Assembly: GCF_003790525.1 (NCBI RefSeq)
Contig: NZ_CP033635.1
Length of the DNA stretch: 64,000 nucleotides
Source: Escherichia coli
Lineage (GTDB): Bacteria > Pseudomonadota > Gammaproteobacteria > Enterobacterales > Enterobacteriaceae
Direction: 5' to 3' (one strand)
The position numbers were made by a program, and so were the translations under genes. The notes under the pieces were generated by a model. The model was not told the origin of the DNA and made no database searches. It saw only the letters and a list, made by a program, of their open reading frames with translations. Below are positions 2,476 through 27,716 of the stretch, in pieces. The stretch's first letter is position 1; each line of letters starts with the position of its first letter.

Positions 2476-3272
2476 AACTTGCTCCTTAGCCGTTATCGTT
2501 TCGAACATGTCATCCTTTTCATTATTTACATCCTTGTCCGAATCGTTGTTCAATATAGTAAACGCCTATAAGAACTTTGCCCTTCGTGAACTAATACGTC
2601 TATTAACACTAATCAATACTTCAGATTTATCCATCACGCACTCCATATATTGATCCTAAGTAAAATTCCTGGTTGTTATCAATTTGTAAATGATAAACAA
2701 AAAGTTAACGTTTGCGGATTACTGCCCAAGAATAAGTTATCAATAACCAGTTTGTGATCTCTGAAGAATATTACTAAAGTTAAAATGTAATCCGATTTAA
2801 ATATCGAGTCTCCTTGTTTCGACTTAGGCTGGCAATTGGATTGCCAGCTTTCTTTTAACGCATTGAAATTACCTGAGTAAATAACTCATTCATGTCTTCA
2901 GGTTTTTATATAGCGTCTGGAGACACGGATATTTATGCAATGTAATCAACGCCAGCTGCAAAAAAATGAACCCGGATTACTTATTTAACCGCCTATAGCA
3001 TCAACGCTTACAGAACTCTTTGTTCACTTTCCCACAGCACTTTTAAAACATTAAACCTGACCACGGAAAATATCAGCCATGATAATGTTTGAAATGGCTA
3101 ATTTGCCATGGAATGAAAAAATCAGATTAAATTCAGTAGGTTGAAATAATCAACAGCAGGCAATTGTTTCAATGATAGTGCGTAATTGAACTGAAACACT
3201 GTATAGCTAAGAGAGTATTAACTGGATCATAGTCACTTAATGTGACTATGATCCAGGTGGAAATAGGGATAA
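2476..3272 (-). promoter_or_regulatory. long AT-rich gadE upstream control region (multiple promoters and activator sites expected)
   Basis: About 800 bp without credible ORFs between hdeD stop and gadE start; very AT-rich; known from E. coli literature as the multi-promoter gadE regulatory region. Confidence 0.5.
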
Positions 3273-21177: not shown

Positions 21178-21531
21178 TTAACTACAAATATTCTTACTGT
21201 CTGCGGAACAATTTTGTCTGGCGAGGTTACGGACAATCACCTGAACCTTTTCCTGTTCGCATCGCCAGGCCTGCTCAATAATTTTCGCCGCCCATGCTGG
21301 AATATGCGGCGATAAACGGTAATGAACCCACTTTCCTTGCTTGCGGTCCAGCAATAGCCCACTTTCACGCAGTAATGCCAGATGGCGGGAGATCTTGGGC
21401 TGCGACTGATCGAGGGCAGTGCAGAGATCGCAGACGCATAACTCTCCCAGCTCGCTGAGCAGTAAAACGATGCCCAAACGGGTTTCATCGGCAAGAATTT
21501 TGAAGAGTTGGATGGGTAACAGAAATGACAT
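21178..21531 (-). CDS. arsR: arsenical resistance operon repressor ArsR
   Basis: 117-aa ORF with metal-binding ELCVCDLC motif and HTH; first gene of arsRBC. Confidence 0.95.
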   Translation of the reverse strand: MSFLLPIQLFKILADETRLGIVLLLSELGELCVCDLCTALDQSQPKISRHLALLRESGLLLDRKQGKWVHYRLSPHIPAWAAKIIEQAWRCEQEKVQVIVRNLARQNCSADSKNICS

Positions 21532-21600
21532 ATTGCGCTCCTGATTGTTGCACTTAGTGTCTCTCTTCGAAGCGGATAAGTCAAAAACATATATGGTTTA
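21532..21600 (-). promoter_or_regulatory. arsRBC promoter / ArsR operator region
   Basis: Minus-strand TTGACT (21579..21584 on plus) upstream of the arsR start; position-based, operator not delimited. Confidence 0.35.
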
Positions 21601-21683
21601 ACGAATTCGTATGTGCAGAGGAAGGTAATAGGTGTGAATTTTGAGTTGGGTATTCATTTGAAAGGAGGTCTGAATCAGGACAT

Positions 21684-21770
21684 AAAAAACCGACTTTGCG
21701 TCGGTTTTTTACTCTTCAGCCTGAGTTGGTGGCTCTGGCTGGAGTGAGAGAGCTCTTATCTAACGGTTCA
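21684..21770 (-). ncRNA. agrA: AgrA small RNA (antisense-type repeat of the dinQ locus)
   Basis: Repeat unit sharing tggctctggctggagtgaga...atctaacg with the dinQ 5' UTR, ending in an intrinsic terminator (ccgac-tttgc-gtcgg plus T-run on minus strand); ends approximate. Confidence 0.45.
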
Positions 21771-21915
21771 ATACTATTAGCCAGTGACTAACATTGCAAG
21801 AATTAGCGATTTCTTCAGCTGGCGGAGGGACAGTTTGCTATACATGGTGGTGAAAGAGGATTGATATACTTTCATCGGGTCGCTGCCGTACCAAGCCTTG
21901 TCCGAATCCGGATGT

Positions 21916-22002
21916 AAAAAAACCGACTTTGCGTCGGTTTTTTACTTTCCAGCCCTGAGTTGGTGGCTCTGGCTGGAGTGAGAATGCCATCATCTAACGC
22001 AT
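21916..22002 (-). ncRNA. agrB: AgrB small RNA (antisense regulator of dinQ)
   Basis: Second copy of the repeat, nearest dinQ and most complementary to its 5' UTR (ggagtgagaatgccatcatctaacg vs ggagtgagaatgccattatctaaca), with its own hairpin/T-run terminator; ends approximate. Confidence 0.45.
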
Positions 22003-22052
22003 CAATGCTAATACCATACTGAAACTATTGCAAGGACATGCTGGTTTTATAA

Positions 22053-22068
22053 CCTGAATATACTGTAT
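22053..22068. promoter_or_regulatory. LexA operator (SOS box) of dinQ
   Basis: CTGTATGATTATCCAG matches CTGT-N8-ACAG, about 200 nt upstream of the dinQ ORF. Confidence 0.7.
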
Positions 22069-22271
22069 GATTATCCAGTTAGCTCTGAGGCATTTTCACT
22101 CTGGCAATGCGCATAAACGCTTTCAAAGTCCTGATCAGTGGTACGGGTGGTGCCGTTAACTGATGCTCTGGCCGGAGTGAGAATGCCATTATCTAACAAT
22201 AGGGCATGCGCCGTGACAGGCAATGGATGAGTAAGCGGATGCATTCTCACTCCATCGTATGGAGAACACGG

Positions 22272-22358
22272 GTGATTGATAAAGCAATCATCGTTCTTGG
22301 GGCGTTAATTGCGCTGCTGGAACTGATCCGCTTTCTGCTTCAGCTTCTGAACTGGTAG
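22272..22358 (+). CDS. dinQ: DinQ, SOS-induced type I toxin (small inner membrane peptide)
   Basis: GTG-initiated 28-codon ORF (M)IDKAIIVLGALIALLELIRFLLQLLNW preceded by GGAG; matches the DinQ peptide as I recall it; located between arsR and gor. Confidence 0.7.
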   Translation: MIDKAIIVLGALIALLELIRFLLQLLNW

Positions 22359-22371
22359 CGGAAACGTAGCT

Positions 22372-22402
22372 AAGGGCTAAGAGCACACTACTCTTAGCCC
22401 TT
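22372..22402. terminator. bidirectional intrinsic terminator shared by dinQ and gor
   Basis: 12-bp stem aagggctaagag / ctcttagccctt with 7-nt loop, 14 nt after the dinQ stop and 7 nt after the gor stop. Confidence 0.55.
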
Positions 22403-22408
22403 TAACAT

Positions 22409-23761
22409 TTAACGCATGGTCACGAACTCTTCTGCCGCCGTCGGGTGAATGGCGACGGTATTATCGAAGTCTTTTTTGGTTGCGCCCATCTTCAGTGCCA
22501 CCGCGAAGCCCTGCAACATTTCGTCCATACCAAAACCAATGCCGTGAATTCCGACAATCTTCTCTTCCGGTCCAACGCATACCAGTTTCATGCGGCACGG
22601 CTGGCGGTGAGTGGTGACGGCGGTATACATCGCGGTGAAAGAGGATTTATACACTTTCACCTGATCGTCGCCGTACTGCTCGCGTGCCTGCGGTTCCGTT
22701 AAACCAACAGTCCCAATCGGCGGATGGCTGAAGACCACGGTCGGAATGTTGCTGTAATCCAGATGCTCATCCGGCTTGTTATTAAACAGGCGTTCAGAGA
22801 GACGGCGACCCGCAGCAACTGCCACCGGTGTCAGTTCCACTGCACCCGTGTTATCGCCCACCGCGTAAATACCTTCAACGTTGGTATTTTGATATTTATC
22901 GACGACGATATAGCCTTTTTCGTTGGTTTTTACACCAGCGGCTTCCAGGTTGATGTTGTCATTGGCAGGCTCGCGACCAATCGCCCAAATCAGGCAATCC
23001 ACCGTTTCACTGCGCCCATCTTCCAGCTCCAGCGTCAGGCTACCATCAGCATTTTTCACTACTGCTTTCGGGATGGCGTTGGTGTGCAACTGCGGGCCTT
23101 CGGCGTTCATCACTTCGACCAGCGTTTCAGAGATCATCGGGTCGAAGCTGCGCAGCGGCGCATGTTTACGCACAAACAGATGCGTTTTCGCGCCGAGGCC
23201 GTTAATCACGCCCGCCAGTTCCACGGCGATGTAACCTGCGCCAACAACCGCCACGCGCTCTGGCAAAGCAGGAAGGGCGAAGAAACCATCGGAATCAATA
23301 CCGTATTCCACGCCTGGAATATCCGGGTGGCTCGGACGACCACCGGTGGCGATCAGAATATGATCGGCCGTGATGGTTTCGCCGTTGACTTCAATGGTTT
23401 TGGCATCAACGAAGCGGGCAAAGCCTTTGATTACATCAACGTTATTTTTACCGAGCACGTTCTCATAGGAAGTATGAATACGGTCGATATAGGCGGTACG
23501 GCTGGCGATCAACGTTTCCCAGTTGAACTTATTGATGGTGGTATCGAAACCATAATCCGGGCCGTACATGTGGATCGCTTCACGGATTTGCGCCGCGTGC
23601 CACATCACTTTTTTCGGCACACAGCCAACATTTACGCAGGTGCCGCCCAGCTCTTTGGCTTCAATCAGTGCGCATTTCTGGCCGTACATAGCCGCGCGGT
23701 TGATGGAGGCGATACCGCCGCTGCCGCCGCCGATGGCGATGTAATCATAGTGTTTAGTCAT
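22409..23761 (-). CDS. gor: glutathione reductase
   Basis: 450-aa ORF, FAD motif GGGSGG, redox-active [10 protein letters not shown], sequence recognised as Gor. Confidence 0.96.
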
Positions 23762-27684: not shown

Positions 27685-27716
27685 AAAGCAGGGTAGCGTT
27701 ATCGCTACCCTGCTTT
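27685..27716. terminator. bidirectional terminator between rsmJ and dtpB
   Basis: 14-bp stem aaagcagggtagcg / cgctaccctgcttt with 4-nt loop between convergent stops. Confidence 0.55.

What the first reader, a model, noticed from the sequence alone, without database searches (positions are those of the whole stretch)
22165..22243. Perfect 13-nt long-range inverted repeat inside the dinQ 5' UTR
ggagtgagaatgc (22165..22177) and gcattctcactcc (22231..22243) are perfect reverse complements separated by 53 nt. The 5' arm is also the segment complementary to the Agr repeat, so the mRNA can pair either with itself or with AgrB, which suggests a structural switch controlling dinQ translation or processing.
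Basis: seen in the sequence. Interest (0 to 1): 0.35.

Follow-up and report, generated by a model that had tools for sequence, protein, structure and literature searches.

The report
Known dinQ leader RNA switch stem
The inverted repeat is real, but it is the already published "2:3 duplex" (stem S2) of the E. coli dinQ toxin mRNA, which competes with the Agr antisense RNA to control toxin translation; this strain simply carries a longer, 13-bp version of it.

Summary
The 13-nt perfect inverted repeat exists, but at 22174-22186 and 22241-22253 with a 54-nt spacer, 9-10 nt from the stated coordinates. About 0.1 such repeats are expected per 64 kb.

The locus is the E. coli arsR-gor region (100% identical to strain SMS-3-5), holding two Agr sRNA genes and dinQ. 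In the numbering of Kristiansen et al. 2016, the arms are "sequence 2" and "sequence 3". Their duplex (stem S2, 9 bp in K-12) was shown by SHAPE, compensatory mutants and in vitro translation to form in the processed +44 mRNA. It frees the Shine-Dalgarno sequence and is displaced by AgrB.

Folding, co-folding and co-evolution across 38 homologues agree with it. The computed change in ribosome-site accessibility is small.

Two points go beyond the papers I read:
- This allele extends S2 to 13 bp. The allele class makes up about 42% of complete E. coli genomes.
- The Agr copy complementary to dinQ here is the dinQ-proximal one (the K-12 "agrA" position), not the agrB position. Outgroups suggest this is the ancestral arrangement.

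Verdict: real and functional, but already known. Low interest, with a modest side observation.

The parts
21681..21763 (-). arsR-proximal Agr sRNA gene (K-12 'agrB' map position). In this strain it is the poorer match to the dinQ target (28 WC pairs, 5 mismatches of 33).
   Evidence: Rfam RF02891 AgrB, 85.4 bits. Position mapped to the K-12 annotation. Pairing score and duplex dG -47.1. Co-fold ddG -23.0 on the +44 leader.
21914..21997 (-). dinQ-proximal Agr sRNA gene (K-12 'agrA' map position). In this strain it is the near-perfect antisense of the dinQ target (31 WC, 1 G:U, 1 mismatch of 33). Its RNA carries GCAUUCUCACUCCA, 14 nt identical to the 3' arm region.
   Evidence: Rfam AgrB, 108.1 bits. 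14-nt inverted repeat I3, 21974-21987 / 22241-22254. Pairing and duplex dG -59.5. Co-fold ddG -38.0, S2 probability falls to 0.
22061..22078 (+). LexA operator TACTGTATGATTATCCAG, overlapping the dinQ promoter and ending at the transcription start (+1 = G22078).
   Evidence: Read directly. Identical to K-12. +1 deduced from the paper's nucleotide numbering, which fits all landmarks.
22078..22408 (+). Full-length (+1) dinQ transcript, 331 nt by analogy with K-12.
   Evidence: Alignment to K-12. Transcript length from PMC5066626.
22093..22105 (+). Sequence 1 (U16-C28). It pairs with the 5' arm region in the unprocessed mRNA (duplex 1:2, part of stem S1). In this allele the pairing extends to G12-C28:G94-C110, 17 contiguous bp.
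   Evidence: Paper definition. S1 pair probability 0.97-1.00 in the +1 fold. Pair string.
22121..22121 (+). Position +44 (U44). In K-12 this is the 5' end of the processed, translatable dinQ mRNA. The local sequence here is identical to K-12.
   Evidence: Processing itself was not tested here.
22165..22196 (+). Agr antisense target in the dinQ leader (G88-A119). Contains a hypervariable cassette at nt 106-113 (AATGCCAT here, GAGTTCTT in K-12).
   Evidence: Direct repeat D1. Paper. Allele comparison.
22174..22186 (+). 5' arm of the inverted repeat (G97-C109), lying within and extending the paper's sequence 2 (G94-G106 = 22171-22183). The first 9 nt are the 5' strand of published stem S2. The last 4 nt (AAUG C) are the strain-specific extension.
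22241..22253 (+). 3' arm of the inverted repeat (G164-C176), overlapping the paper's sequence 3 (U167-U178 = 22244-22255). Its 3' part, CUCC (C173-C176 = 22250-22253), together with A177-U178 (22254-22255), is the anti-SD that alternatively pairs with AUGGAG.
   Evidence: Identical in all 15 E. coli loci sampled.
22259..22264 (+). Sequence 4 (A182-G187, AUGGAG), containing the Shine-Dalgarno GGAG (22261-22264). Forms SD hairpin 3:4 (SL5) when the 3' arm is free.
   Evidence: Paper. SL5 probability 0.68 (+1), 0.01 (+44), 0.83 (+44 with the Agr target blocked).
22272..22358 (+). dinQ CDS with GTG start, encoding VIDKAIIVLGALIALLELIRFLLQLLNW (28 aa). One residue longer than K-12 because TGA is TGG here.
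   Evidence: RefSeq annotation of the identical SMS-3-5 locus. Translation. Alignment.
22372..22402 (+). dinQ terminator hairpin (SL9 of the paper).
   Evidence: Perfect 12-nt inverted repeat I9. Paper.

Best explanation
The two arms are 'sequence 2' and 'sequence 3' of the dinQ type I toxin mRNA leader, and their duplex is stem S2 of the processed (+44) mRNA.

Mechanism:
- Unprocessed transcript: the 5' arm is held by sequence 1 near the 5' end (stem S1). This leaves the 3' arm free to pair with AUGGAG and bury the Shine-Dalgarno sequence, so the mRNA is silent.
- After removal of the first 43 nt: the 5' arm captures the 3' arm, which is the inverted repeat seen here. The SD hairpin cannot form and DinQ can be translated.
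- When the cognate Agr antisense RNA binds nt 88-119: it takes the 5' arm away, the 3' arm re-forms the SD hairpin, translation stops, and the Agr-dinQ duplex becomes an RNase III substrate.

What is shown and what is inferred:
- Shown experimentally in K-12 by others: the alternative structures (SHAPE), compensatory mutants, in vitro translation, closing of the SD hairpin by agrB, and RNase III cleavage.
- Shown here in silico for this strain: the mutually exclusive pairings, their displacement by Agr, and co-evolution of the arms.
- Inferred: that processing, SD exposure and regulation operate the same way in this strain; that the 4 extra base pairs strengthen the 'on' conformation; and that the dinQ-proximal Agr copy is the functional antitoxin here.
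For: Identity of the locus: 100% match to E. coli SMS-3-5 arsR-dinQ-gorA, with two Rfam AgrB hits.

Exact mapping onto the published elements: G97-A105:U168-C176 = 22174-22182:22245-22253; agrB target G88-A119 = 22165-22196; SD G184-G187 = 22261-22264.

Published SHAPE, compensatory-mutation, S30-translation and agrB data.

ViennaRNA on this strain:
- +1 form: S1 P=0.97-1.0, S2 P=0, SD hairpin 0.68.
- +44 form: S2 P=0.65-0.99 over all 13 pairs, SD hairpin 0.01. S2 is also in the MFE and centroid structures.
- +44 with the Agr target blocked: SD hairpin 0.83.

Co-folding: Agr binding abolishes S2 and restores the SD hairpin (0.68).

Family-level evidence:
- All 38 dinQ/dql homologues keep a 2:3 duplex.
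- 79.7% of cells are paired, against 38-59% when the partner is slid.
- 8 of the 13 pairs have at least one homologue changed on both sides, e.g. U101:A172 to G:C, C:G or A:U. Of the controls, only the covariation score clearly exceeds the shuffles (0/500 reach it); the count of such pairs does not (89/500).
- Cognate arms pair better than non-cognate arms: -17.9 vs -14.7 kcal/mol, 0 of 10,000 permutations.
Against: No experiment exists for this allele.

The computed cost of opening the ribosome-binding region (nt 182-197) differs little between states (9.7 to 11.4 kcal/mol). In the +44 ensemble the SD is predicted to pair with CUCU89-92 (P about 0.54) instead. Thermodynamic modelling therefore does not by itself reproduce 'SD freed'.

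For K-12, ViennaRNA gives S2 only P=0.02 in the +44 form, contrary to the published SHAPE. This shows the limits of the prediction.

RNAalifold on the family alignment does not return S2 as the consensus. That is expected for one of several mutually exclusive folds, but it is not positive support.

The 4-bp extension is unpaired in most homologues (columns 20-22).

The +44 leader folds only modestly better than shuffles (z = -1.76).
Confidence: 0.87

Rival explanations
1. Only the 9-bp core (GGAGUGAGA:UCUCACUCC) is the functional stem. The perfect 13-nt length would then be an incidental by-product of recombination or gene conversion that shuffles a hypervariable cassette (nt 106-113) among the three Agr-type repeats. 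The AAUGC allele happens to complement GCAUU, a sequence conserved for another reason, namely the base of stem-loop SL4.
For: The 3' arm including GCAUU is identical in all 15 E. coli loci sampled, whatever the 5' allele. In K-12, G164-U167 belongs to SL4 (A129-U167). Extension pairs are unpaired in 16-25 of 38 homologues. E. albertii, E. whittamii and Citrobacter carry UAGU(C/U), which does not pair with GCAUU. The cassette always matches one of the Agr copies, which points to Agr complementarity as the driver of its sequence.
Against: The same AAUGCC allele also perfects pairing with sequence 1: GGCAUU gives 17 contiguous bp in S1, against an interrupted helix in K-12. It makes the predicted switch far cleaner. 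Stems of 13-14 bp recur independently in Escherichia sp. E1V33 and in locus L045 with different sequences. The allele class is common, about 42% of genomes.
Confidence: 0.4
2. The main role of the stem is not to expose the SD. Instead it would sequester the Agr target and protect the processed mRNA, setting the kinetics of Agr binding and RNase III decay, with translation controlled by another route such as ribosome standby.
For: The computed RBS opening energy hardly changes between states, and the SD finds other partners in the +44 ensemble. The authors themselves say a standby mechanism cannot be excluded. The stem buries 13 of the 32 target nucleotides.
Against: In K-12, the m2+44 mutation closed the SD hairpin and abolished translation, the m2+44/m3 double mutant restored the wild-type SHAPE pattern, and agrB binds +44 efficiently and more readily than +1. 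Folding gives the SD hairpin 0.01 with the stem and 0.83 without it.
Confidence: 0.08
3. The repeat is a DNA-level or transcription-level signal rather than an mRNA switch: a cruciform, a protein-binding palindrome, a recombination site or an intrinsic terminator/attenuator.
For: Perfect palindromic arms. The region is recombinationally active: collapsed alleles and cassette exchange are seen.
Against: The 54-nt spacer is too long for a protein-binding palindrome or an easy cruciform. No T-run follows the 3' arm, and the terminator scan found nothing. The recombination seen uses the direct repeats, not this inverted pair. Arm changes across species preserve RNA pairing, including G:U pairs, which is an RNA signature and not a DNA one.
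Confidence: 0.02

Closest known systems
dinQ 5' UTR switch of E. coli K-12: sequences 1-4, stems S1/S2 and SD stem-loop SL5, with AgrB (Kristiansen et al. 2016, RNA 22:1739; Weel-Sneve et al. 2013, PLoS Genet 9:e1003260)
   Same: It is the same locus and the same elements at the same transcript positions. The 9-bp core of the stem, the 3' arm, sequence 1, SD/sequence 4, the +44 site, the LexA box and the ORF are identical or nearly so. The predicted behaviour is the same.
   Different: This allele has AAUGCCAU instead of GAGUUCUU at nt 106-113. That lengthens S2 from 9 bp (plus G:U, a mismatch, G:C and U:G) to 13 perfect bp, with isolated-duplex dG -22.4 vs -16.9, and S1 to 17 contiguous bp. 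The complementary Agr gene is the dinQ-proximal copy rather than the arsR-proximal agrB. DinQ has one extra C-terminal Trp.
dql (dinQ-like) genes dqlA/dqlB of enterobacterial chromosomes and plasmids (Kristiansen et al. 2016; NCBI names 'DinQ-like type I toxin DqlB')
   Same: The leader architecture is the same, with conserved blocks, a 2:3 duplex and a 3:4 SD hairpin. The arms co-vary.
   Different: About 70-76% identity to this leader. The arm sequences differ (e.g. GGAGGAAGUC/GAUUUCCUCC) and the peptides differ (MINLLIIVL...).
tisB/istR-1 and shoB/ohsC, zorO/orzO: type I toxins with 5'-processed, structure-gated leaders
   Same: An inert primary transcript, activation by 5' processing (+42 in tisB), an antisense RNA binding far upstream of the SD, and LexA control for tisB.
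   Different: According to the paper, tisB keeps its SD closed and uses a ribosome standby site that IstR-1 blocks. dinQ instead uses competition between alternative helices for the anti-SD strand. These are unrelated sequences.
hok/sok fold-back inhibition (fbi)
   Same: A long-range intramolecular helix locks the full-length toxin mRNA against both translation and antisense binding until it is processed.
   Different: In hok the lock is a 5'-3' end pairing released by 3' trimming. Here the lock (S1) is within the 5' UTR and is released by 5' processing. The inverted repeat in question is the 'unlocked' helix, not the lock.

Membership tests
DinQ/AgrB type I toxin-antitoxin locus | Small hydrophobic single-transmembrane toxin ORF (DinQ, 27 aa, GTG start) between arsR and gor | tested here: met
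   CDS 22272-22358 encodes VIDKAIIVLGALIALLELIRFLLQLLNW. It is annotated 'damage-inducible type I toxin DinQ' in the identical SMS-3-5 record.
DinQ/AgrB type I toxin-antitoxin locus | Divergently transcribed Agr sRNA gene(s) upstream, non-overlapping, with about 32-34 nt complementarity to the dinQ 5' UTR | tested here: met
   Two Rfam RF02891 hits above the gathering score (108 and 85 bits against 40). Pairing to the 33-nt target: 31 WC + 1 GU + 1 mismatch for the proximal copy, 28 WC + 5 mismatches for the distal copy.
DinQ/AgrB type I toxin-antitoxin locus | LexA operator at the dinQ promoter (SOS control) | tested here: met
   TACTGTATGATTATCCAG at 22061-22078, identical to K-12. LexA binding itself was not tested.
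DinQ/AgrB type I toxin-antitoxin locus | Processing of the primary transcript at +44 to the translatable form | not testable with these tools
   The sequence around U44 (22121) is identical to K-12. Cleavage needs RNA mapping.
dinQ leader duplex 2:3 (stem S2) of the four-element switch | The 5' strand lies inside the Agr target and the 3' strand overlaps the anti-SD | tested here: met
   22174-22186 lies inside 22165-22196. The last four bases of the 3' arm, CUCC (22250-22253), are also the 5' strand of the SD hairpin (C173-U178 = 22250-22255) that pairs with AUGGAG (22259-22264).
dinQ leader duplex 2:3 (stem S2) of the four-element switch | Mutual exclusivity with duplex 1:2 (unprocessed RNA) and hairpin 3:4 (SD sequestration) | tested here: met
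   In silico, S2 is 0 in the +1 form and 0.65-0.99 in the +44 form. The SD hairpin is 0.68, 0.01 and 0.83 in the +1, +44 and Agr-blocked states. Co-folding agrees.
dinQ leader duplex 2:3 (stem S2) of the four-element switch | Conservation and co-variation of the two strands among dinQ/dql homologues | tested here: met
   38 homologues: 79.7% of cells paired against 38-59% for slid controls; covariation score 0.240 against 0.202, with 0/500 shuffles reaching it. Cognate vs non-cognate duplex energies: 0/10,000 permutations. This is met for the 9-bp core, not for the 4-bp extension.
dinQ leader duplex 2:3 (stem S2) of the four-element switch | Formation of the stem exposes the SD and permits translation | tested here: inconclusive
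   Shown experimentally for K-12. For this allele the computed RBS opening energy changes by 1 kcal/mol or less between the +44 free and blocked states, and the SD pairs elsewhere in the ensemble.
Rho-independent terminator / attenuator | Short-loop G+C-rich hairpin followed directly by a U-run | tested here: not met
   54-nt spacer. The 3' arm is followed by ATCGTATGGAG. No terminator-like site was found in 21530-22420.

The most novel reading that the evidence does not exclude
The dinQ/Agr locus may be a recombining, three-copy specificity system rather than the fixed 'agrB = antitoxin, agrA = inactive paralogue' arrangement of K-12.

An 8-nt cassette (dinQ nt 106-113) is exchanged among the dinQ target and the two Agr genes. 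As a result, the copy that is antisense to dinQ is the dinQ-proximal ('agrA'-position) gene in this strain and in the outgroup species. That would be the ancestral state. In K-12-type strains it is the arsR-proximal gene.

The same cassette also sets the strength of the two intramolecular helices (S1 'lock', S2 'on' state). Natural E. coli lineages would then differ in how tightly DinQ is locked and in which sRNA controls it, with the window's allele giving the strongest predicted switch.
Probability: 0.55. Interest if true: 0.4.

Novelty: already known. Interest (0 to 1): 0.2.

Why it matters
For the finding as stated, little changes. It rediscovers from raw sequence a structural switch that was worked out experimentally in 2016, which is a useful sanity check on the first-stage reader.

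The side observations could matter to people working on type I toxin-antitoxin systems:
- The laboratory strain K-12 carries a derived arrangement and a weaker form of the stem.
- About 42% of complete E. coli genomes carry an AAUGCC- or AAUACC-type target.
- In the strains sampled, the cognate antisense gene is often the one called agrA, which the literature treats as non-functional. An agrB deletion may therefore have no phenotype in many natural isolates, and annotation by position would mislabel the antitoxin.
- Roughly 13-15% of genomes appear to have lost the dinQ promoter and leader through repeat-mediated deletion.

Tried and rejected
- The first dinucleotide-shuffle script timed out. 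It was replaced by Markov-1 simulations.
- The sigma-70/terminator consensus scan of 21530-22420 found none of the promoters and terminators mapped in K-12, only one unrelated minus-strand promoter-like match. It is uninformative and is not used as evidence either way.
- RNAalifold on the 38-sequence alignment returned SL4 and local hairpins but not S2. I read this as a limit of consensus folding for mutually exclusive structures plus MAFFT gaps in the 3' arm. I used explicit pair counting and a gap-tolerant duplex test instead.
- The RBS opening-energy calculation gave only small differences between states and is reported as a caveat.
- One hit of the genome scan (L044, Spartobacteria) was a random pattern match and was excluded. 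Two 'Haemophilus sputorum' contigs and three contigs from metagenome bins (two labelled Lachnospiraceae, one uncultured bacterium) carry enterobacterial or plasmid-type dinQ/dql sequences. I treated them as plasmid carriage or contamination and not as taxonomic evidence.
- Rejected readings: terminator/attenuator (no U-run, 54-nt loop); DNA palindrome for a protein (spacer too long, G:U-preserving changes); RNase III site within the stem itself (13 bp is short, and the paper detected no RNase III cleavage of free dinQ RNA).

Full report
**Observation**

They lie at 22174-22186 (GGAGTGAGAATGC) and 22241-22253 (GCATTCTCACTCC) with 54 nt between them. The stated coordinates are 9-10 nt too low. 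Position 22165 is in fact the first base of the 33-nt Agr-type direct repeat. The flanking bases do not pair, so the stem is exactly 13 bp. A perfect inverted repeat of at least 13 nt with a 3-100 nt loop is expected about 0.1 times in a 64-kb window (analytic estimate 0.093; mean 0.10 over 100 Markov-1 simulations). The window holds three, and the other two are short-loop hairpins. The repeat is therefore real and not a chance match.

**Context**

The region is 100% identical to E. coli SMS-3-5 and lies between arsR and gorA. dinQ is annotated at 22272-22358 on the plus strand. Rfam's AgrB model (RF02891) matches twice on the minus strand: 21914-21997 (108 bits) and 21681-21763 (85 bits). A 33-nt segment of the dinQ leader (22165-22197) is a direct repeat of the plus-strand sequence of both Agr genes (family D1).

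**What the repeat is**

Kristiansen et al. 2016 (PMC5066626) describe four leader elements in K-12 dinQ:
- sequence 1: U16-C28
- sequence 2: G94-G106
- sequence 3: U167-U178
- sequence 4: A182-G187, which contains the SD G184-G187

[quoted passage not shown] In the +44 RNA, sequence 1 is gone, so 2:3 forms (stem S2, G97-A105 with U168-C176) and the SD is single-stranded. AgrB binds G88-A119, displaces 2:3 and closes 3:4. It also creates an RNase III substrate.

Their evidence consists of:
- SHAPE on both RNAs.
- Disruptive and compensatory mutants. The m2+44/m3 combination restores the wild-type SHAPE pattern.
- S30 translation: only +44 is translated, and the m2+44 mutant is not.
- SHAPE and translation with agrB or agrA added: agrB closes the SD and represses, and agrA does neither.

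Setting +1 at window 22078 makes every landmark fit: G1, the U16-U19 run, GGAGUGAGA at 97-105, UCUCACUCC at 168-176, AUGGAG at 182-187 and the GUG start.

**Independent checks on this strain's sequence**

ViennaRNA partition-function folding of the 331-nt and 288-nt RNAs:

| State | S1 | S2 (13 pairs) | SD hairpin |
|---|---|---|---|
| +1 | 0.97-1.00 | 0.00 | 0.68 |
| +44 | not applicable | 0.65-0.99 | 0.01 |
| +44, nt 88-119 blocked to mimic Agr | not applicable | 0.00 | 0.83 |

The strand folding also places the 13-bp stem in both the MFE and the centroid of the +44 leader (z = -1.76). Explicit co-folding with the two Agr RNAs removes S2 and restores the SD hairpin (0.68). The binding gain on +44 is -38.0 kcal/mol for the dinQ-proximal Agr and -23.0 for the arsR-proximal one. 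On the +1 RNA the gains are -25.9 and -13.7, consistent with the published weaker binding to +1.

Caveats:
- The cost of opening nt 182-197 differs by only about 1 kcal/mol between states.
- In the +44 ensemble the SD is predicted to pair with CUCU89-92 (P about 0.54). The last step, SD exposure, therefore rests on the K-12 experiments and not on my computation.
- For K-12 itself the program gives S2 only P=0.02 in the +44 form, contrary to the published SHAPE.

**Comparative evidence**

I collected dinQ/dql leaders from three sources:
- E. coli genomes.
- Plasmids, where 1,597 records match and most are annotated dinQ or dqlB.
- Species-representative genomes, scanned with a pattern built only from conserved blocks outside both arms. 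This gave 22 true hits in Escherichia, Citrobacter, Serratia, Pantoea, Hafnia and others.

In a 38-sequence alignment (A1), counting the 13 pairs gave these results:
- 79.7% of cells are paired, against 38-59% when the 3' partner is slid by 1-3 columns.
- 8 pairs carry double changes, for example U101:A172 to G:C, C:G or A:U.
- The covariation score is 0.240 against 0.202, and no shuffle of 500 reaches it.
- The support is for the 9-bp core. The three extension pairs in columns 20-22 are unpaired in 16-25 of the 38 sequences.

A gap-tolerant test gives the same answer. Every homologue can form a 2:3 duplex. Cognate arms pair better than arms from different lineages: -17.9 against -14.7 kcal/mol over 24 distinct arm classes, and none of 10,000 partner permutations reaches the observed mean. 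Stems of 13-14 bp recur in Escherichia sp. E1V33 and, with a different sequence, in locus L045.

**What is specific to this strain**

K-12 has GAGUUCUU at nt 106-113 where the window has AAUGCCAU. The 3' arm is identical in all 15 E. coli loci I read. K-12 therefore has 9 bp plus an interrupted extension, while this allele has 13 perfect bp. The isolated duplex energies are -16.9 and -22.4 kcal/mol. The same allele also makes S1 a 17-bp uninterrupted helix (G12-C28:G94-C110). Strains with UAGUC at 106-110 carry A13 instead of G13, an apparent compensatory change.

The allele is common. The 111-nt segment 22150-22260 is at least 99% identical in 1,332 of 5,414 matching genomes and 95-99% identical in 971 more, including O157:H7, whose AAUAC variant breaks one pair. 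K-12-type sequences fall in the 90-95% band, which holds 2,415 genomes (one search is consistent with this).

**Side finding: which Agr copy is the partner**

In K-12 the gene order is gor-dinQ-agrA-agrB-arsR. The arsR-proximal copy (agrB) is the near-perfect antisense (32 WC pairs of 33), while the dinQ-proximal agrA has 3 mismatches and 4 G:U pairs. In the window the relation is reversed:
- dinQ-proximal copy: 31 WC + 1 G:U + 1 mismatch.
- arsR-proximal copy: 5 mismatches.

Among the sampled E. coli loci the cognate copy is proximal in the window, L003, L004, L005, L007 and L010. It is distal in K-12, L006, L008, L009 and L011. In every intact locus, one copy matches the dinQ cassette. In E. 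albertii, Escherichia sp. E1V33, two Citrobacter species, C. werkmanii, C. amalonaticus and Serratia oryzae, the cognate and often the only copy lies 181-234 nt upstream, which is the proximal slot. The proximal partner therefore looks ancestral, and the K-12 arrangement looks derived.

The 2013 and 2016 papers do not discuss strain variation. T1TAdb allows for two paralogues and picks the more stable one, but in the text I could read it does not report a positional swap. A search for papers naming dinQ, agrA and agrB found nothing else relevant. This rests on 15 E. coli loci and on sequence complementarity only.

**Rivals**

- The most serious rival is that only the 9-bp core is selected and the 13-nt perfection is a by-product of cassette exchange driven by Agr complementarity, with GCAUU conserved because it forms the base of SL4. 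This is compatible with the main explanation. I give it about 0.4.
- A role mainly in protecting the Agr target rather than opening the SD fits my weak opening-energy result, but it is contradicted by the K-12 mutant data (about 0.08).
- DNA-level or terminator readings are excluded by the 54-nt spacer, the absence of a U-run and the G:U-preserving substitutions (about 0.02).

**Verdict**

The feature is real, functional and correctly interpreted, but it is already known in detail. Interest is low (0.2). The strain-level points could be followed up cheaply with a population-wide extraction of the locus and one pair of deletions in a non-K-12 strain. Those points are the longer stem, the positional switch of the cognate antisense gene, and the collapsed loci.

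Noticed in passing
window 21681-21763 and 21914-21997 (minus strand) compared with 22165-22197; loci L002-L011, L026, L032, L040, L042, L043: The Agr copy that is near-perfectly antisense to dinQ is the dinQ-proximal one (K-12 'agrA' slot) in this strain and in the outgroup species, but the arsR-proximal one (agrB) in K-12-type strains. An 8-nt cassette at dinQ nt 106-113 has at least six alleles in E. coli, and in every intact locus sampled it matches one of the Agr copies. I did not find this reported in the papers searched.
   Followed up: partly
L012 (about 590-700), L013, L014, L015; corresponds to window 21630-21764 fused to about 22165 onward: In the four loci sampled from the 80-90% identity band (696-797 genomes), the left flank, terminator and repeat of an Agr gene are fused directly to the dinQ leader at the repeat. 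This deletes the Agr promoters, the dinQ promoter and LexA box, and leader nt 1-87. L015 has a further 7-nt deletion in the cassette. It looks like repeat-mediated collapse that probably silences the locus. arsC, not arsR, is the neighbour in these strains. Plasmid loci L022 and L023 show a similar terminator-plus-target fusion.
   Followed up: partly
window 21839-21891 compared with 22624-22676: A 53-nt segment between the two Agr genes is 83% identical (blastn E = 5e-12), in the same orientation, to an internal piece of gor (codons about 362-379). This is probably a relic of the duplication that created the second Agr unit from a dinQ-gor segment. The stretch is also the most divergent part of the intergenic region between this strain and K-12.
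   Followed up: partly
window 22353-22358: DinQ here is 28 aa (…LLNW*) because the K-12 stop codon TGA is TGG, followed by TAG. RefSeq gives it a separate protein accession (WP_077250934.1).
   Followed up: no
window 22183-22207 (dinQ nt 106-130): The cassette allele is linked to changes about 18 nt downstream: AGGGC/GGGGC with AAUGCC alleles, GAGAC with GAGUUC or UAGUCG alleles. This preserves a local hairpin (SL3: A106-C110 with G126-U130 here). The cassette therefore seems constrained by four different partners: sequence 1, sequence 3, the 3' half of SL3, and Agr.
   Followed up: no
window 22166-22169 with 22261-22264 (dinQ nt 89-92 with 184-187): In the +44 ensemble, ViennaRNA pairs CUCU89-92 with the SD GGAG (P about 0.54) as a coaxial continuation below S2. 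This would keep the SD partly occluded. The published K-12 SHAPE shows this region reactive, so the helix may be a prediction artefact or a weak extra layer of control.
   Followed up: partly
window 3222-3256 and 27685-27716: Two other perfect 13-nt inverted repeats with 9- and 6-nt loops, probably ordinary hairpins or terminators. Not examined.
   Followed up: no
L027, L028 (Haemophilus sputorum contigs); L036, L045 (Lachnospiraceae MAG contigs): dinQ/dql leaders identical or close to enterobacterial or IncX-plasmid versions occur on short contigs assigned to unrelated taxa. This is most likely contamination or mis-binning in those assemblies.
   Followed up: no
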